Shown one piece after another: positions 3,001-60,000 of a stretch of DNA of 64,000 nt; the stretch's first letter is position 1, and every line of letters begins with the position of its first letter. The position numbers were made by a program. The DNA is from Bacteriovoracaceae bacterium (lineage in GTDB: Bacteria; Bdellovibrionota; Bacteriovoracia; Bacteriovoracales; Bacteriovoracaceae). Location of the stretch: NCBI GenBank assembly GCA_041586955.1, contig JBFGZE010000003.1, positions 34,855 to 98,854 on the forward strand, read 5' to 3'.

Positions 3001-6000
3001 TTTAGAGAATGCGCTTGAAGAATTACAAAAAAGGGGCCGTATTTGAATCTCAAAGGACTCACTTCTGTGCGCTTGCACCCAGCTTCTATTAAATACCTAG
3101 GTAAGGGCCATCCTTGGATCACAGAAGACCAATACACGGAGAAATTTCCAAAGGGCGCAAAATTTTTAATTGGTGGTAAAGAGTTTGTGCTTTTACACGA
3201 TCCCACCCATAAGAAGATCAAAGCGCGCCTTTGGCGAAAATGGGATCACTCGATTAAAACTTTTGACTTTAAAAGAGATCTCAATAAACGCATTGAAAAG
3301 GCCTTGGCCCAAAGACAAGAGCAGAATATCGCTAGTGATAGAGATAATTATTATCTGATCTTTGGTGAAACTGATGCCATCCCAGGGATCTATGTTCAAA
3401 AAATCAAAGGCCATATCCTATTACAAACCCAAATGGATTTTTGGAAACCTTATTTAGGAGATATTGTCCGTAAAATTAGAGAGGCCTTTCCCGAACAAGA
3501 ACTTATTGTCTGGTGGCAAAAACGTGATCAAACAGCACAGGCAAAATGGATCCCCTTTGCCCATGAACAGGAATCCGCTAATTTCGTTATTAAAGAATAT
3601 GATATTAATTATCAAATCAAATTAGGGCCTCATTACGATTTTGGCATCTATACCGATATGGCGGCCATCCGTGGCCAATTACCACAAAAACAATTGGAAA
3701 ATAAAAAGGTTCTTAACCTTTTCGCCTATACTGGCGCCTTCTCTCTTTTTGCTCTCAAAAATCAAGCGGCAGAGGTGACTTCAGTTGACCTCTCTAAGGT
3801 TTATTCAACATGGCTTGAAGAAAATATCGATCTTAATCCAGACCTTGATAAAAGCAAGCACCAAATGATCACAATGCCGACAATTAAAGCGCTCAACCGA
3901 TTGATTAAGGAAGAAAAATCATTTGACCTCATCATTTGTGACCCACCCTCGGCCAGTTCTGATGGCAAGAAAATGACGAGTGCAATTAGGGGCTACGAGC
4001 AATTAATGCCTTTGATTGCCAAACTTCTTGCCCCTCACGGAACGGTAATAACCTTTATTAACACCCATAGTATTAATTTAGATCAATACCGCCGCAAGAT
4101 GAATCAATACATTCATAAAAACGAGCTACATCTTAAGAGTCAGAAAATTTATCAATTAAATTCTGATTGTCCCACTCTTGCGACTTTTCCTGAGGGAAAT
4201 TATCTCAAGGGTATTTGTTTCAAAAAATTAGATAAATAAATCAACTTTGCTTGAGTATTGCCGCCTGGCACTTGTTTCATGATATAGCTCACCTTCATGA
4301 GCAAGATGAGTCATCACGAAATTCCTCATTTTCCTTTAAGCTAAAGTCTAGAAAGTAAGGCATGCGCAGGAGGCTATCTTGATGGAATTATCACAGAGAA
4401 TTTTAAAACGAGCACAAACGCCACTATATCTAGAATCGACAGTCGAAAAAGAGGCCTTCCTGGCGGAAAAACGCCCCCATTCTTTTTCAACATCTGTGGA
4501 GACCAAAAATGATGGGGAAATTACCCTCTTCGGATTGATTGATGAAAATCAGGTGCCTCCTCAGTTTTTGGCGATTAAATATACAGGAAACCTTAAACAA
4601 GAGGTTTTGGCCTTAGTCGATGTCTTTGTTGAATTCTCAACAGGAAAAGATATAAGAGGAATTAAGGCACTCTCTCTAAGAGAGATAGATAGTTTTTTAC
4701 GAGACAATAACCTCCATTCGGCCTTCCCTGAAAATAACACAAACCTTTTAATACTTTTTGACCAATTAAAAAAGGCCCTGGAAAAAGTCATTGAGGCCGA
4801 TGACCAAAGGCCAGCTGGTGAAAAGATCTCGCCAACCATCAACAGAGACTATAAAAACAAAGGTTCTTATTATCCTTATAATAATAAGAATAACTATCAT
4901 GATCTTGACCAGGGAGAAAAGGCCCAATTAATTGCTCAGATTATTGAAGATCATATCGCCACCCCTTTAAGTCGAGATGGTGGAGGAATATATTGTGTTT
5001 TTACCGATGATAATTTAGTGGTGATAGAATACTTAGGGGCATGTCAGGGTTGTTTATCATCCTTGACCACCACAATGAATTTCATTCAAAGGGTTTTCCA
5101 ATTGGAAACCGGTGCCCCTGGTATTCTCGTTATGACAGATTCTTAGACAATGGCATCGATAGTTGCCATTAATTTTTTTCTTGGGCATTTTCAAATAGTG
5201 GCAACATAATCAAGTCACCATCACCATGAACATCATTTATCTTCTCTGCCATTTTATAAAGAATATTGTTCTCTTTATCGATATGCTCCAATAATATTTG
5301 AGCATATTCATAAACATAAATTTTAAATTGCTCCCACGACTCTTCGTCACCGCCTTGGACTTTTTGTAGTGTTAAACTGGCCCTATCGACAATTTCCCGG
5401 CTCTTGTCGTGCTCTCCTAGCATACAGCGAAGAGGCCCATTTTCAAGATCCGGTTCTTTAGAGCGCATCCATAAGAAATAAATATCTTCTTCCTTAGCGT
5501 GATGATAATCATCAGCGTAACTTTTTAAAAAATGAAGAAAGGTCGTCCAATACTTCAAATCATGCCAATTTTCAGTGTCTAAAAAGCGCAGGGCATCGTT
5601 AATCGTATTGGAAATAACTTGATGCTCTTCTTTAAGAATTTCTGTCGCTTTCATATCACTTCCTCTGAGAGTTTAAAACATAATCTAAGGAGAACTTGCC
5701 ACTACCTGCCCAACTAAATGCCGCTAAACAAACCAACACTAATAAGGAGAATTGAAAGTCCTGGCCATGGGATAACATGCCATCCACCCCATGAATGAAA
5801 AATGTGGCACCAAATAGAACAGGAAGGTTCAATACGGCAAATGTCCGTGTGGCAAAACCTAGTAACAAGGAGATCCCTCCGGCAATATGTGCGAAAATCA
5901 CGTACCAACTGGTGACATTTTGAAAATGCCCCATATGGCCAGTCATACTTTCAATCGTCTGCATATTGAGGATGAAATAGATTCCCTTAATCGCCAATGC

Positions 6001-57000: not shown

Positions 57001-60000
57001 CAAAAATCGCAATCATCCGACCACTCACTTGGGCCTCTCCAGCTAAAAAAGCGATGGATTGCAATTGATCTTTTAATTCTTGATAACGACTTTCACTGGT
57101 CACGCGGTAACAAATATGATCACAAAGCGTAAGATTCTTAATGCCAAGTTTTTCCAGATTTTCAATAATTAAGGTAAGCATTGGCCCATAATCGCCTAAT
57201 AGTGATTTAATCACCCTTGTCTCCAATATTAATAGGTTGTTTTTATGGTCTTATCTCACTATAACAAAACCCGTCAATATCATTCAAGGCCTTCGTTCAC
57301 AGACTCGCATAAATAAGTTTTCTCAATTGTTTCAATTTCTCAGTGAACATTAATGATCGTTTATTACAGAAAGAATATTTTACTCAAGTGAGTAAGATGC
57401 TTTGAAGGTTTTTTAATCTAATGGTCAAGATTACATTTTACAGAATAAATGTCTTTGTATCGATCAAGAATTTCTTGGTACTTGCCATTTTGTTTTATTA
57501 TCTTAAGGCCTTTATTAAAATCGTTCCGAAGTTTTATATCGTAAAATTTAACATTACGCGGAGTTGGATCAGTTAAATTATGGAATTTAAACAGATTGAT
57601 CTGATCCCCTATTTCACGCCTGACAACAGTGTTAAAAATATTTTTATCTCCTATAGCAACTTGAATCCGGTTTTTAAGTAATAAAACGTAATGCTTTCTT
57701 TGCTCAATATTTTCCGAGTATTCCTTATTGGACTTGGTCATCTTGTAAAAGAGAGGACCTATTGTTGCACTGGCAGAGGCAAATGCCATAATCGATTTAT
57801 TTTGGTAATCGCTCATCGTTTTTAAAACGAAATTGTTTTCTTTAAGCGTAATAGCGCAATCTATGTAATTGAGGGTGGTCGCCGAATTATAAAACTTAAT
57901 TTTTGTTTGAGAATAATCCTTATTATTTAAATTCGAAGCGATCCCATCAACCTCCTTTTCTGCCATAAGACGTATCGCTCTTTTATAAGGGATATTTCCA
58001 TATAATTTAAAAGTATGGCCAGAGGCATTGAGGGCATACATGATTATGTCTAACTCGATCCCGGATCTATTTTTCTCCATCAAATAAGGTGCCATCGACA
58101 TGGTAAAGGCGATATTCACCTGATTTGGTTTAATATCCACCTGGGAAAAGAGACAGATACTAGTGACGCCAAATATTGCTAATCGTCTTTTCACATGACC
58201 ACCTAAGGTTCCATTTCATCGAATCCTATAACTTACTAAAGTCATAAAGGATTCAAGATGTAATACTTATGGCATACTAAAACGCCCCACTAAATAGAAA
58301 CCACTTACAACAAATCCATCGTTTTGGTGCCATCACTCTAACTCTCTACCTACCAAGGTGACATGTCAATAACTCTTGTTTACCAAATCCCCATGAATAG
58401 ATACTTTTTCTGAATCCGAGATCATTTTTTATCAATTACTTTGATCTTTGTTACATAAGAAATTGAGGATTATCAGAAACAGAGATATAAATGAAAGACT
58501 TAATCTTATATCAAAAAGGAAGAACCTCGATGTTCGAATTGTTTTCTAAAACGAAAGAAACCCTAAAAAATGACCTTTTATCCGGTCTTACCGTTTCATT
58601 GGCCCTTGTCCCAGAAGCTGTCGCCTTTTCATTTGTCGCAGGAGTGGATCCACTCGTTGGTCTATACGCTGCCTTTTTAGTCGGTTTAATCACCTCAATT
58701 TTCGGTGGTCGACCAGGCATGATTTCTGGAGCGACAGGCGCACTGGCCGTGGTAATGGTAACCCTGGTCGCCAATCATGGCGTTGAATATCTTTTTGCCA
58801 CTGTCGTACTGATGGGCCTTCTCCAAACCTTGGCCGGCGTTCTAAAGCTCGGAAAGTTTGTTCGACTTATACCTCACCCTGTCATGTTAGGCTTTGTTAA
58901 CGGTCTCGCCATCATTATCTTTTTGGCCCAATTATCTCAATTTAAATTTAAAAATAATCAAGGTGCTCTACAATGGCTCGAAGGAAAAGACATGGGCCTT
59001 ATGCTCGGTCTTGTCATTTTAACAATGGCGATTATTCACTTTCTTCCTAAATTAACAAAGGCCATCCCTTCATCTCTCGCTGCGATCGTAACAGTAACGG
59101 GGCTTGTCCATTTTCTCGGTCTCGATACGCGAACCGTTTCTGATCTCGCTTCAGTTGCTGGTGGACTCCCCACCTTCCATATTCCAGCTATTCCTTTTAA
59201 CCTGGAAACGCTTAAAATTATTTTTCCCTATTCGGCCATTTTGGCCTCAGTTGGTTTAATTGAATCTCTTATGACCCTACAACTTGTCGATGAAATTACA
59301 GAGACAAGAGGACGCGCTAATCGCGAATGTATCGGTCAGGGTCTGGCCAATATCGTCACTGGTTTTTTTGGTGGTATGGGTGGTTGTGCCATGATCGGTC
59401 AGAGTATGATTAACGTCAATTCTGGTGGTCGCGGTCGTGCTTCTGGTATTAGTGCAGCGCTTTTCCTTTTATTCTTCATTGTTGCCGGCTCCAGTATGAT
59501 TGAGATGATTCCCTTGGCCGCACTCGTCGGTGTAATGTTCATGGTAGTCTTTGGAACTTTCGAATGGTCAAGTGTTCGCGTCCTTAACAAGATCCCCAAG
59601 TCAGACGCTTTTGTTATCATTCTCGTCTCAACCGTCACGGTATTTACAGACCTTGCCATTGCCGTTTTTTGTGGTGTGGTTGTCTCATCACTTGTCTTTG
59701 CTTGGAAAAAATCTGAACGCATTAACTCTGAAGAGTATATTGATGAAAAGGGATATAAACATTATAAACTAAGCGGTCCTCTCTTTTTTGGTTCGGTTCA
59801 AAGCTTTCAAGAACTTTTCAATCCAAAAGAAGACCCTAAAAAGGTTTTTCTCGACTTTAAAGATTCAAGAGTTTGTGATTACTCCAGTATCGAAGTTCTC
59901 AATAACTTAGTGGATAAGTATAAAGGTCTCGATAAAGAAGTTTATATTAAAAACCTCAGTCCTGATTGCCAAAGTGTTGTCGATAAGGCCGGTAAGATTT

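What a model noticed while it worked through the whole genome (the two positions that open the first line are those of the whole stretch)
5169..58194. Anaerobic nitrate-respiration island (cyt c-NarGHJI fused in one gene string with an ACIII and two NarK) in a predatory- [...]
This Bacteriovoracaceae genome (a lineage known as obligately aerobic predators) encodes a 53-kb anaerobic-respiration island: hemerythrin, two NarK-type nitrate/nitrite porters (one fused to DoxX), an alternative complex III gene set (g00275 pentahaem ActA, g00274 ActB, g00273 NrfD-type ActC, g00272 ActD, g00271 cytochrome c ActE, and the family-less g00270 in the place of ActF) directly abutting narI-(g00277)-narH-narG (g00276-g00279) and a cytochrome c (g00280), FeoAB, a full Moco pathway behind a Moco riboswitch, NnrS, HemN, NrdDG and ModABC. 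Elsewhere it has NapAB with a tetrahaem, FeS and NrfD quinol module (C56:13773-19668), NsrR-qNor-YtfE (C41:2080-5520) and a Sec-type clade-II nosZ [...]
Evidence so far: genes.tsv/pfam.tsv/ncbifam.tsv/swissprot.tsv rows: NarG 49% and NarH 50% identical to B. subtilis NarGH, NCBIfam names for NarG/H/I, NosZ (Sec-dependent), NosD, NrdD/NrdG, MoaA/C, ModABC; NapA 46% to Paramagnetospirillum NapA with an RRDFIK Tat motif; rna.tsv Moco riboswitch C3:80131-80247. relatives.tsv: NarG_dom_V in 13 of 236 family genomes, nos_propeller in 11 of 236. neighbours.tsv: NarG next to a cytochrome c in 12 of 237 order genomes and in 1146 of 14367 genomes with both. Six-frame HMM searches of the own genome for NirK (TIGR02376) and NirS (PF02239) gave nothing above cut-off.
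(Added by a program. Inside this text positions count along the whole contig: contig position 34,855 is position 1 of the stretch shown here. "Call 12" and the like, gene names such as g00115 and contig names such as C1 are that model's own, and its searches are not shown. The text may have been shortened before it was handed on; [...] marks where a part breaks off. The agent that wrote the report below was given it as the finding of a first reader that could run no searches.)

Follow-up and report, generated by a model that had tools for sequence, protein, structure and literature searches.

The report
Nitrate reductase operon with built-in ACIII
A relative of the predatory Bdellovibrio-like bacteria carries one long operon that joins a nitrate reductase with an extra cytochrome c to an alternative complex III, a pairing that recurs in several phyla and suggests an unstudied way of wiring nitrate respiration.

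Summary
The gene content is real. Window 5169-23448 (minus strand) is one 14-gene string with gaps of 45 nt or less: narC-narGHJI-actABCDEF-narK-narK/doxX-hemerythrin. The "family-less" g00270 is ActF (PDB 6f0k_F, E 1e-66). The cytochrome c g00280 is a homologue of Thermus NarC, and a complex model supports its docking on NarI (0.73 against 0.01 for the best control).

The nar-ACIII fusion is not peculiar to this genome. Of the 60 assessable loci among the 76 nearest NarG relatives, 42 have act genes next to nar, in about seven phyla. All 16 NarG-positive genomes of the 237 in the family also have ACIII. This scan reported the same architecture five times before on other DNA. Nine literature searches found no description of it.

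The "53-kb island" is only partly a unit. The Moco operon, NarK, hemerythrin and NifU-like genes lie near nar-act in 5 of 5 relatives examined, NnrS in 3 of 5; FeoB, NrdDG and NuoBCDI in 0 of 5. There is no composition shift, no tRNA gene and no mobility-gene family.

ACIII here is the family's ordinary orthologue. A Rieske/cytochrome b complex, caa3, cbb3, qNor, Nap and NosZ lie elsewhere in the genome. NirK, NirS and NrfA were not found (88% complete). How Nar and ACIII are wired together is unresolved.

The parts
23657..23681 (-). Terminator-like hairpin between orf130 and narC; likely upstream limit of the operon
   Evidence: 9-pair stem followed by ATTTTTT. It is a consensus match only.
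22654..23448 (-). NarC: membrane-anchored dihaem cytochrome c, first gene of the operon
   Evidence: Signal peptide, CMSCH at 31, CLSCH at 149, membrane helix 229-247. Homologous to Thermus NarC. C31, C34, H35, M89, C149, C152, H153 and M194 are invariant in 53 sequences. Modelled docking on NarI.
19016..22633 (-). NarG, catalytic subunit; no Tat signal, so cytoplasm-facing
   Evidence: TIGR01580 1509.5 bits; the match starts at model position 27; no RR motif; N-terminal HGVNCTGSC.
17480..18970 (-). NarH, iron-sulfur subunit
   Evidence: TIGR01660 663.2 bits against cut-off 524.
16932..17477 (-). NarJ-like chaperone
   Evidence: TIGR00684 40.6 bits, below the 59.35 cut-off; PF02613, E 3.7e-4; its position between narH and narI.
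16249..16938 (-). NarI, dihaem b membrane subunit
   Evidence: Four His ligands are invariant. R83 aligns with E. coli K86.
15689..16237 (-). ActA, pentahaem cytochrome c with N-terminal membrane helix
   Evidence: five CXXCH motifs. It starts 11 nt after narI.
12730..15666 (-). ActB, molybdopterin-like plus FeS subunit with a twin-arginine motif
   Evidence: DRRSFLK; tree.
11348..12724 (-). ActC, NrfD-type quinol-binding membrane subunit
   Evidence: PF03916; 59-83% identical to ActC of nar-linked and stand-alone loci; 50-56% to the cox-linked clade, loci L084, L085, L093, L101, L102.
10837..11376 (-). ActD
   Evidence: PF11821 178.1 bits.
10287..10844 (-). ActE, monohaem lipoprotein-like cytochrome c
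9077..10270 (-).
   Evidence: 6f0k_F E 1.2e-66; 6btm_F E 4.2e-51.
7455..9053 (-). NarK/NarU-type nitrate/nitrite porter
   Evidence: TIGR00886 270 bits (below the 311.7 cut-off); PRK15034 301 bits.
5656..7425 (-). NarK-type porter fused to a C-terminal DoxX domain
   Evidence: TIGR00886 303 bits (below the 311.7 cut-off); PF07681 at residues 468-546.
5169..5654 (-). Hemerythrin-domain protein, last gene of the string
   Evidence: PF01814 66 bits. It starts 1 nt after narK/doxX ends.
4379..5146 (+). NifU-domain protein, convergent with the operon; kept beside nar-act or act in relatives
   Evidence: PF01106; 5 of 5 relatives; also next to nar-less act in L083 and L094.
23727..24119 (-). orf130, a small protein kept beside narC in 3 of 5 relatives
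   Evidence: Only a weak PhoU hit (E 1.3e-4, below cut-off).
24204..26634 (-). FeoA-FeoB ferrous iron uptake; not part of the conserved core
   Evidence: Seen in 0 of 5 relatives' neighbourhoods.
39784..45326 (-). Moco operon: moeA-moaA-moaC-mobAB-moaD-moaE-moeB
   Evidence: Lies near nar-act in 5 of 5 relatives.
45277..45393 (-). Moco riboswitch ahead of moeA
   Evidence: RF01055 43.3 bits, gathering score 36.
45829..48323 (+). NnrS and HemN
   Evidence: NnrS is near nar-act in 3 of 5 relatives and HemN in 1 of 5.
50144..52376 (-). NrdD-NrdG anaerobic ribonucleotide reductase; not part of the conserved core
   Evidence: TIGR02827 979 bits; TIGR02826 176 bits. Seen in 0 of 5 relatives' neighbourhoods.
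54146..56698 (+). ModABC molybdate uptake
   Evidence: All three genes lie near nar-act in 1 of 5 relatives.

Best explanation
The window holds a Thermus-type four-subunit respiratory nitrate reductase (NarC-NarGHI with NarJ) that is co-transcribed with the family's ordinary alternative complex III, two nitrate/nitrite porters and a hemerythrin.

Proposed mechanism:
- NarK proteins exchange nitrate and nitrite across the membrane.
- NarI oxidises quinol at the periplasmic face and passes electrons through its two b haems to NarH and to the cytoplasmic NarG.
- NarC sits on NarI through its C-terminal helix and its second haem domain. It links NarI's outer haem to the periplasmic c-type cytochrome pool.
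- ACIII oxidises quinol in parallel and reduces that same pool through ActA and ActE.
- One transcript therefore sets up a branched anaerobic chain. Electrons can go to cytoplasmic nitrate or to periplasmic acceptors: NosZ, which has its own cytochrome c, and the cbb3 oxidase.

The Moco operon with its riboswitch, ModABC, NnrS, HemN and the hemerythrins are supporting genes nearby.

Shown: gene identities, operon-like packing, cross-phylum conservation, conserved cofactor ligands. Modelled: the NarC-NarI contact. Inferred: expression, direction of electron flow, and nitrate respiration by this organism.
For: - Packing. Fourteen co-oriented genes with gaps of -29 to +45 nt. A terminator-like hairpin lies only upstream of narC.
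- Identities.
- NarC homology.. The NarC haem ligands are invariant in 53 sequences.
- NarC-NarI model. Score 0.73 (median of 3 runs), best of 3 controls 0.01. That mark was reached by 116 of 157 solved complexes and 2 of 215 mismatched pairs; these counts hold only roughly because my own alignments were used. The runs agree in at least 86% of contacts and the partner's pLDDT is at least 78. A PDB sequence search with NarC found no nitrate reductase chain among its 12 hits, so the pass is not a memory of a solved NarC complex.
- NarI. H54, H64, H182 and H200 are invariant. The nearly invariant R83 aligns with E. coli K86 in a profile alignment, so a quinol site is probably kept.
- Thermus precedent. 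NarC is needed for Nar maturation, interacts with NarI, and is proposed to pass electrons to periplasmic reductases (PMC7694296, passages read).
- ACIII is generic, not Nar-specialised. The window's ActB lies in a 17-row family clade (SH-aLRT 99) with 13 stand-alone and 4 nar-linked rows. A nar-linked row (L024) is sister to a nar-less one (L083) at support 100.
- Cytochrome-c-dependent acceptors exist in this genome. A cytochrome c gene precedes nosZ, and nosDFY follow; no NosG- or NosH-type iron-sulfur protein family was hit in the nine ORFs scanned around nosZ. A cbb3 oxidase is also present.
- Conserved linkage. 42 of 60 assessable loci have act next to nar. All 16 NarG-positive family genomes have ActD, against 47 of 237 genomes overall.
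Against: - Eight of the 16 NarG-positive family genomes show no NosZ, NirK or NirS at the thresholds used, and six of those eight are 97-100% complete. Feeding N-oxide reductases therefore cannot be the general reason for the linkage. Oxidases, cNor and NrfA were not surveyed.
- The genome also has a Rieske/cytochrome b complex beside caa3, so ACIII is not needed simply as the only complex III.
- If NarC already links Nar to the cytochrome c pool, as in Thermus, a parallel ACIII looks partly redundant.
- No expression data exist: no RNA run holds the sequence.
- The role of E. coli K86 is recalled from memory, not taken from a call.
- The survey set was chosen as the nearest NarG relatives and is dominated by MAGs. 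Relatives are not independent samples.
Confidence: 0.55

Rival explanations
1. Series supercomplex. ACIII is the quinol oxidase for nitrate reduction. Electrons run from ActA/ActE to NarC, then through the NarI haems to NarH and NarG. Nar then acts as a cytochrome c:nitrate reductase, and ACIII's proton-translocating step is added to the charge separation across NarI. This would be the nitrate counterpart of the ACIII-caa3 supercomplex.
For: - act clusters are typically followed by the genes of their electron acceptor, and ACIII-caa3 forms a supercomplex with direct electron transfer (PMC5928083, passages read). Two of 2 plasmid ACIII loci I opened are act-sco-cox.
- Here narCGHJI takes the place of cox, either before act (40 loci) or after it (2 loci).
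- In 22 loci the narI-actA gap is 14-146 nt.
- All 16 NarG-positive family genomes have ACIII, and half of them lack NosZ, NirK and NirS.
- In the model, NarC's second haem domain sits on the NarI loops around residues 75-85, next to the outer haem ligands.
- NarC's first haem domain matches the extra cytochrome c domain of F. johnsoniae ActA (6btm_A residues 59-148, E 3.6e-10). That domain is said to replace the oxidase's cytochrome c domain.
- There is a precedent for a complex-III-type module feeding Nar: the haloarchaeal Rieske/cytb-Nar clusters (PMC3509893, passages read).
Against: - NarI keeps the quinol-site basic residue and all haem ligands.
- Thermus NarCGHI is described without ACIII in the review passages read.
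- The nar-linked ACIII is the same orthologue as nar-less copies, with no sign of specialisation.
- Fifteen Bacteroidota, 2 Chlorobiota and 1 Bdellovibrionota loci have narC-narGHJI without adjacent act.
Confidence: 0.28
2. The adjacency has no functional meaning. A narCGHJI cassette repeatedly lands beside, or is lost from, a resident housekeeping act operon, and the two complexes work independently.
For: - Within the family, the nar-linked and nar-less act operons are orthologous and interleaved on the tree.
- ACIII occurs without Nar in 31 of the 47 ActD-positive family genomes.
Against: - The same order and tight spacing persist across Acidobacteriota (20 loci), Bdellovibrionota (8), Myxococcota (6), Armatimonadota (2), Planctomycetota (2) and others.
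- The ActB clades follow these phyla.
- Gaps of 11-146 nt leave little room for separate promoters.
- NarG never occurs without ACIII in the family: 16 of 16.
Confidence: 0.1
3. The enzyme runs mainly in reverse as a nitrite oxidoreductase. NarC and ACIII would carry electrons from nitrite to oxidases or back to the quinone pool.
For: The Thermus review notes a very similar cytochrome-c-containing cluster in Nitrobacter that works as NXR.
Against: - NarG scores as equivalog narG (1509 bits).
- The genes around it are anaerobic or nitrosative-stress functions: NrdDG, HemN, NnrS, hemerythrins.
- NarK porters, Nap, qNor and NosZ fit a reductive chain.
- No carbon-fixation context was looked for.
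Confidence: 0.03
4. Contig C3 is mis-binned or chimeric, and the nitrate respiration genes belong to another organism.
For: The genome is a 194-contig bin, 88.45% complete with 2.13% contamination.
Against: - The window's NarG is 74-81% identical to three Bacteriovoracaceae- or Bdellovibrionales-labelled records and one labelled Bdellovibrio sp..
- Its ActB nests inside the family clade.
- Five family genomes share the nar-act-Moco neighbourhood.
- GC is even across the window.
- Three further DNA runs of the same study hold 5-40% of the sampled words.
Confidence: 0.03

Closest known systems
Thermus thermophilus narCGHJIK(T) operon, the heterotetrameric NarCGHI of the nitrate respiration element
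   Same: - narC lies directly upstream of narG and is about the same size: 264 aa here, and a 789-nt CDS in pTHTHE1601.
- NarC has two c haems and a membrane anchor.
- The two proteins are 29-30% identical over 73% of the length.
- Nitrate porter genes lie in the same operon.
- The NarG match starts at model position 27. This fits the missing N-terminal end described for Thermus NarG (PMC10609526).
   Different: - Thermus has no act genes in the 18.5 kb shown around its nar operon.
- Thermus has dnrST, drpAB and nrc regulators and a dehydrogenase that I did not see here.
- Here ACIII is inserted between narI and narK, and a hemerythrin ends the operon.
ACIII-oxidase modules: Rhodothermus marinus ACIII-caa3 (6F0K) and Flavobacterium johnsoniae ACIII-aa3 (6BTM)
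   Same: - A complete actABCDEF set, with ActF matching the solved chains.
- ACIII is encoded next to a terminal reductase that carries a membrane-anchored c-type cytochrome entry point.
- A family-level equivalent, act followed by cox genes, exists in relatives L085, L101 and L102 and on plasmids.
   Different: - The neighbour is a cytoplasm-facing nitrate reductase with its own quinol-binding NarI, not an oxidase.
- No sco or cox genes lie in the operon.
- A physical Nar-ACIII association is untested.
- The R. marinus structure paper does not contain the word nitrate.
Haloarchaeal Rieske/cytochrome b-Nar gene clusters
   Same: A quinol:acceptor complex of the complex III functional class is encoded with Nar and is proposed to feed it (PMC3509893).
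   Different: - The haloarchaeal Nar faces outward and lacks NarI.
- The partner there is a Rieske/cytb complex, not ACIII.
- Here NarG has no Tat signal and NarI is present.
Escherichia coli NarGHI (1Q16)
   Same: - NarG, NarH and NarI are equivalog-level matches.
- NarI aligns over residues 2-216 with all four haem histidines.
   Different: An extra NarC subunit, a shorter NarG N-terminus, Arg in place of Lys86, and ACIII in the operon.

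Membership tests
Respiratory nitrate reductase NarGHI (cytoplasm-facing) | NarG, NarH and NarI score above curated equivalog cut-offs | tested here: met
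   1509.5 against 1084; 663.2 against 524; 128.2 against 105.6 bits.
Respiratory nitrate reductase NarGHI (cytoplasm-facing) | No Tat signal on NarG; NarI has four haem-ligand histidines | tested here: met
   no RR motif in NarG; H54, H64, H182 and H200 invariant in 53 sequences and aligned to the E. coli ligand positions. The E. coli ligand numbering is recalled from memory.
Respiratory nitrate reductase NarGHI (cytoplasm-facing) | NarJ chaperone | tested here: inconclusive
   TIGR00684 40.6 bits, below the 59.35 cut-off.: PF02613 E 3.7e-4. The position between narH and narI fits.
Respiratory nitrate reductase NarGHI (cytoplasm-facing) | Quinol site with a basic residue at the E. coli K86 position | tested here: inconclusive
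   The profile alignment puts the nearly invariant R83 on K86. The single-sequence alignment shifts it by two residues. The function of K86 is recalled from memory.
Thermus-type NarCGHI | Dihaem, membrane-anchored cytochrome c gene directly upstream of narG and homologous to Thermus NarC | tested here: met
Thermus-type NarCGHI | NarC binds NarI | tested here: met
   By model only: score 0.73 against best control 0.01. In Thermus the interaction was shown by two-hybrid assays, according to PMC7694296.
Thermus-type NarCGHI | NarC required for maturation and membrane attachment of NarGH | not testable with these tools
   Needs genetics in a carrier organism.
Alternative complex III | actABCDEF set: pentahaem ActA, ActB (MopB-like plus FeS), NrfD-like ActC and ActF, ActD, monohaem ActE | tested here: met
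   It is the only ACIII in the assembly (tblastn).
Alternative complex III | Quinol:cytochrome c oxidoreductase activity | not testable with these tools
   Biochemical property.
Horizontally acquired genomic island (53 kb as one unit) | Composition shift, a flanking tRNA gene, or integrase/transposase genes | tested here: not met
   GC 0.37-0.43 in 2-kb bins (0.345 only in the last bin, outside the finding). No tRNA genes. No mobility-gene family among 59 ORFs.
Horizontally acquired genomic island (53 kb as one unit) | The same gene set travels together in relatives | tested here: inconclusive
   The core (nar-act, NarK, Moco, hemerythrin, NifU-like) is present in 5 of 5 relatives and NnrS in 3 of 5. 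FeoB, NrdDG and NuoBCDI are present in 0 of 5. Only 42-80 kb per relative was examined.

The most novel reading that the evidence does not exclude
NarC-NarGHI and ACIII form a nitrate-respiring supercomplex. ACIII oxidises menaquinol and hands electrons directly to NarC, and NarC feeds NarI, NarH and NarG. This would add ACIII's coupling site to nitrate respiration and make it a bacterial, cytoplasm-facing counterpart of both the ACIII-caa3 supercomplex and the haloarchaeal Rieske/cytb-Nar chain. It would be carried as one operon in at least seven phyla, including relatives of bacterial predators.
Probability: 0.28. Interest if true: 0.8.

Novelty: new variant of a known kind. Interest (0 to 1): 0.6.

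Why it matters
Textbook bacterial Nar takes electrons straight from quinol and bypasses complex III (stated in PMC3509893). A conserved operon that ties a cytochrome-c-bearing Nar to ACIII in Acidobacteriota, Myxococcota, Bdellovibrionota, Armatimonadota, Planctomycetota and others points to one of two things. It may be a more efficient, complex-III-coupled form of nitrate respiration. Or it may be a built-in switch that divides electrons between cytoplasmic nitrate and periplasmic acceptors.

For Bdellovibrio-like bacteria, the finding adds genomic support to the emerging view that some of them can respire in anoxic, nitrate-bearing habitats. In this family that capacity is limited to a minority: 16 of 237 genomes.

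Tried and rejected
- FNR/CRP-type boxes. TTGAT-N4-ATCAA with 1 mismatch gave 8 matches against 6.6 expected, and none lies in the promoter regions of the anaerobic operons. There is no evidence for a shared FNR regulon.
- Expression. No RNA holder is listed for window 15000-19000; four DNA runs of one study hold it. I did not lay reads.
- Dedicated second ACIII. Rejected: tblastn finds one ACIII in the assembly, and its ActB groups with nar-less family copies.
- ACIII as the only complex III. Rejected: Rieske and cytochrome b genes lie next to caa3 on C24.
- nar-act on plasmids. ActC hits 19 plasmid records. The 2 I opened are act-sco-cox, not nar-linked; the other 17 were not opened.
- Literature. 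Nine searches and passages of 12 papers found no description of a nar-ACIII operon. Subscription-only papers, for example the Refojo et al. ACIII reviews, are not in the library, so this is not proof of absence.
- NarI losing its quinol site as a test of the series model. Not supported.
- One scan call failed on a size limit and one family call failed on a coordinate offset. Both were corrected and repeated.
- Tools not used: the search for homologous proteins, the search of protein representatives, structure prediction, fold search, the protein-atlas search, read laying.

Full report
**What is there**

The window is the last 64 kb of contig C3 of a 194-contig assembly, 88.45% complete with 2.13% contamination. 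On the minus strand, from 23448 down to 5169, lie 14 co-oriented ORFs separated by -29 to +45 nt.

Pfam and NCBIfam name them as follows:
- a c-type cytochrome
- NarG (TIGR01580, 1509.5 bits against cut-off 1084)
- NarH (663.2 against 524)
- a NarJ-like protein (40.6 bits, below the 59.35 cut-off)
- NarI (128.2 against 105.6)
- ActA, ActB, ActC, ActD (PF11821, 178 bits) and ActE
- an ORF with no family hit
- two NarK-type porters, the second with a C-terminal DoxX domain
- a hemerythrin-domain protein

The ORF with no family hit matches solved ActF chains: 6f0k_F at E 1.2e-66, and also 6btm_F, 6lod_F and 8k9e_F. The ACIII set is therefore complete.

Motif reading shows five CXXCH in ActA, DRRSFLK in ActB, one CXXCH behind a lipobox-like signal in ActE, and no twin-arginine motif in NarG.

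A terminator-like hairpin lies at 23681-23657, between the preceding gene and the cytochrome c gene. This is a consensus match only.

**The cytochrome c is NarC**

The protein is 264 aa long. It has a signal peptide, two CXXCH motifs and a C-terminal membrane helix at 229-247.

A tblastn search of the plasmid collection gave 27 records. The only matches that span both haem domains are on 14 Thermus records: 13 Thermus thermophilus plasmid records at 29-30% identity over 73% of the query, best E 3e-12, and one T. parvatiensis record at 28% over 68%. On pTHTHE1601 that match is the c-type cytochrome gene directly upstream of narG-narH-(TorD-like)-narI-MFS.

The Thermus review (PMC7694296, passages read) describes NarC as follows:
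- a membrane-bound periplasmic dihaem cytochrome
- required for maturation and attachment of NarG
- interacting with NarI in two-hybrid assays
- proposed to pass electrons to periplasmic reductases when complex III is repressed

An alignment of 53 NarC sequences from related loci has both CXXCH motifs and two Met residues (M89, M194) invariant.

A two-chain model of NarI plus NarC, each given as a 53-row alignment, scored 0.73 (median of three runs) against 0.01 for the best of three controls. That mark was reached by 116 of 157 solved complexes and 2 of 215 mismatches; these counts hold only roughly because my own alignments were used. The runs agree in at least 86% of contacts and the partner's pLDDT is at least 78.

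In the model, the NarC helix (229-254) packs on NarI residues 88-100. The second haem domain (137-197) covers NarI loops 75-85, 142-157 and 168-176. A PDB sequence search with NarC returned no nitrate reductase chain, so the pass is not a memory of a solved NarC complex. It supports binding but does not show it.

**Nar itself looks canonical**

In 53 NarI sequences, H54, H64, H182 and H200 are invariant. They align with the haem-ligand histidines of E. coli NarI; that numbering is recalled from memory.

The nearly invariant R83 falls on E. coli K86 in the profile alignment, but two residues away in the single-sequence alignment. From memory, K86 belongs to the quinol site. If that is right, this NarI probably still binds quinol.

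**The arrangement is widespread**

A scan of one genome per species with NarG returned 76 loci with up to 10 kb of flank. I mapped the window's proteins onto them by tblastn.

| Class of locus | Loci (of 76) |
|---|---|
| Too short downstream to judge | 16 |
| act downstream of narI, same strand | 40 |
| act directly upstream of narC | 2 |
| No act within at least 5 kb downstream | 18 |

The 40 loci with act downstream split by record label as follows:

| Phylum label | Loci |
|---|---|
| Acidobacteriota | 20 |
| Bdellovibrionota | 8 |
| Myxococcota | 6 |
| Armatimonadota | 2 |
| Planctomycetota | 2 |
| Pseudomonadota (labelled) | 1 |
| KSB1 | 1 |

- In these 40 loci the narI-to-act gap is 14-146 nt in 22 loci and 1.1-3.5 kb in 18. 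Most of the larger gaps hold NarK hits.
- The 2 loci with act upstream of narC are both Bacteroidota.
- The 18 loci without act are 15 Bacteroidota, 2 Chlorobiota and 1 Bdellovibrionota.
- A NarC-like gene lies within 400 nt upstream of narG in 62 of the 64 loci where this could be judged. One of the two misses (L058) does show a cytochrome c hit but failed my spacing rule.

These loci are the nearest NarG relatives, are nearly all MAGs, and carry record labels that may be wrong.

**Within the family**

The family sample is 237 genomes including this one.
- ActD matches strongly (E at most 1.5e-26) in 47 genomes.
- NarG exceeds its cut-off in 16 genomes, and all 16 are among the 47.
- Reading the coordinates: in 12 of the 16, NarG and ActD lie on one contig and one strand within 12 kb (10 with act after nar, 2 with act before). 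Three are cut by contig ends. One (G109) has them on different contigs.

An ActB tree had 58 rows, using the quick IQ-TREE method with LG+G4. Loci without an ORF covering at least 80% of ActB were dropped, leaving 57 of 96 loci. One row, L070, has a very long branch.

The tree puts the window in a 17-row clade (support 99) with 4 nar-linked and 13 stand-alone family copies. The nar-linked L024 is sister to the nar-less L083 at support 100. The cox-linked family copies (L085, L101, L102) fall in a separate clade, and the other phyla form their own clades.

So the ACIII in this operon is the family's ordinary stand-alone orthologue. nar has been gained or lost beside it. Alternatively, the linked state is old and nar has often been lost.

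**What could ACIII feed?**

The genome encodes the following elsewhere:
- a Rieske/cytochrome b complex with a 945-aa multihaem cytochrome next to caa3, on C24
- a cbb3 oxidase with fused CcoNO, on C55
- qNor between an Rrf2 regulator and a RIC protein, on C41
- Nap with a tetrahaem/FeS/NrfD module, on C56
- a Sec-type NosZ preceded by a monohaem cytochrome c and followed by NosD, NosF and NosY; no NosG- or NosH-type iron-sulfur family was hit among the nine ORFs scanned there

NirK, NirS and NrfA were not found.

Across the family, 8 of the 16 NarG-positive genomes have none of NosZ, NirK or NirS at the thresholds used, and six of the eight are 97-100% complete. Supplying N-oxide reductases therefore cannot be the general reason for the linkage. 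Oxidases, cNor and NrfA were not surveyed.

**The "island"**

- GC stays between 0.37 and 0.43 over the finding.
- There are no tRNA genes.
- No mobility-gene family appears among the 59 ORFs scanned.
- The Moco riboswitch is confirmed.
- The Moco operon comprises moeA, moaA, moaC, mobAB, moaD, moaE and moeB.

I examined five family genomes over 42-80 kb around nar-act:

| Genes | Relatives with them near nar-act (of 5) |
|---|---|
| Moco operon, NarK genes, a hemerythrin, NifU-domain gene | 5 |
| NnrS | 3 |
| ModABC (all three genes) | 1 |
| HemN | 1 |
| FeoB, NrdDG, NuoBCDI | 0 |

The conserved unit is therefore smaller than 53 kb. In this window it is interrupted by about 16 kb of unrelated genes: FeoAB, QueD, NuoBCDI, lipoproteins and SOD.

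**Comparison with what is known**

The operon combines two known systems: Thermus-type NarCGHI and ACIII.

- Haloarchaea pair an outward-facing Nar with a Rieske/cytb complex. The same paper states that in Bacteria electron donation to Nar bypasses that complex (PMC3509893, passages read).
- Nine literature searches found no description of a nar-ACIII operon. Subscription-only papers are outside the library.
- This scan noted the same architecture five times on other genomes. I saw those notes only after my own survey, and they agree with it.

On the "obligate aerobe" premise, a 2026 preprint cites nitrate-dependent anoxic predation by B. bacteriovorus HD100 and reports nitrite and NO reductase genes in BALO genomes (passages read).

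**Verdict**

| Reading | Probability |
|---|---|
| Branched chain: NarI-based quinol:nitrate reduction and ACIII share a transcript and are linked through NarC | about 0.55 |
| Series ACIII-NarC-Nar supercomplex | about 0.28 |
| Meaningless adjacency | about 0.10 |
| Nitrite oxidation (reverse operation) | about 0.03 |
| Mis-binning | about 0.03 |

Nothing here shows expression or activity.

Noticed in passing
window 27966-30719 (-); G000 C111, C104, C114: NuoB, NuoC, NuoD and NuoI sit alone, without membrane subunits. NuoH is split over the ends of contigs C104 and C114, and three antiporter-like subunits lie on C114. C111 carries a second, divergent set of NuoB, a fused NuoCD and a ferredoxin that scores below NCBIfam cut-offs.
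   Followed up: partly
window 5656-7425 (-): A NarK-type porter is fused to a C-terminal DoxX domain (residues 468-546). Hits of 63-73% identity covering at least half of the protein occur in family relatives; in other phyla the hits are only 23-35% identical. The purpose of the fusion is unknown.
   Followed up: partly
window 4379-5146 (+): A 255-aa protein with a C-terminal NifU domain lies beside nar-act in 5 of 5 relatives, and beside nar-less act operons in L083 and L094. It may be an Fe-S maturation factor for ACIII or Nar.
   Followed up: partly
window 23727-24119 (-): orf130 has only a weak PhoU-like hit and is kept next to narC in 3 of 5 relatives. It is a candidate regulator or accessory protein.
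   Followed up: partly
window 22654-23448 (-), residues 26-115: NarC's first haem domain matches the extra cytochrome c domain of Flavobacterium johnsoniae ActA (6btm_A residues 59-148, E 3.6e-10) and an SCO1/SenC-cytochrome c protein (2l4d_A, E 2.1e-18).
   Followed up: no
G000 C56:13773-19729 (locus L002 5774-11729): NapA (RRDFIK) and NapB are followed by a tetrahaem cytochrome, an FeS protein and an NrfD-type protein instead of NapC or NapGH. Earlier notes of this scan describe the same layout in other genomes.
   Followed up: partly
G000 C24:11333-16594 (locus L001): The Rieske and cytochrome b genes are followed by an ORF without a family hit and by a 945-aa multihaem cytochrome c, close to the caa3 genes. 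This is an unusual bc-type complex.
   Followed up: no
window 48335-50110 (+): A PLP-dependent decarboxylase, tyrosine-decarboxylase-like but below cut-off, lies between HemN and NrdD. Homologues (28-41% identity) lie near nar-act in 3 of 5 relatives.
   Followed up: no
window 60072-60791 (-): A second hemerythrin/RIC-like protein lies just outside the finding's range. Homologues occur near nar-act in 5 of 5 relatives.
   Followed up: partly
G006 contig C62: In a nar-less relative the stand-alone ACIII (ActD at 183126) lies about 5-11 kb from cytochrome d1 (NirS-type) matches, with NirK about 25 kb away. The family's ACIII is therefore also found beside nitrite reductase genes.
   Followed up: no
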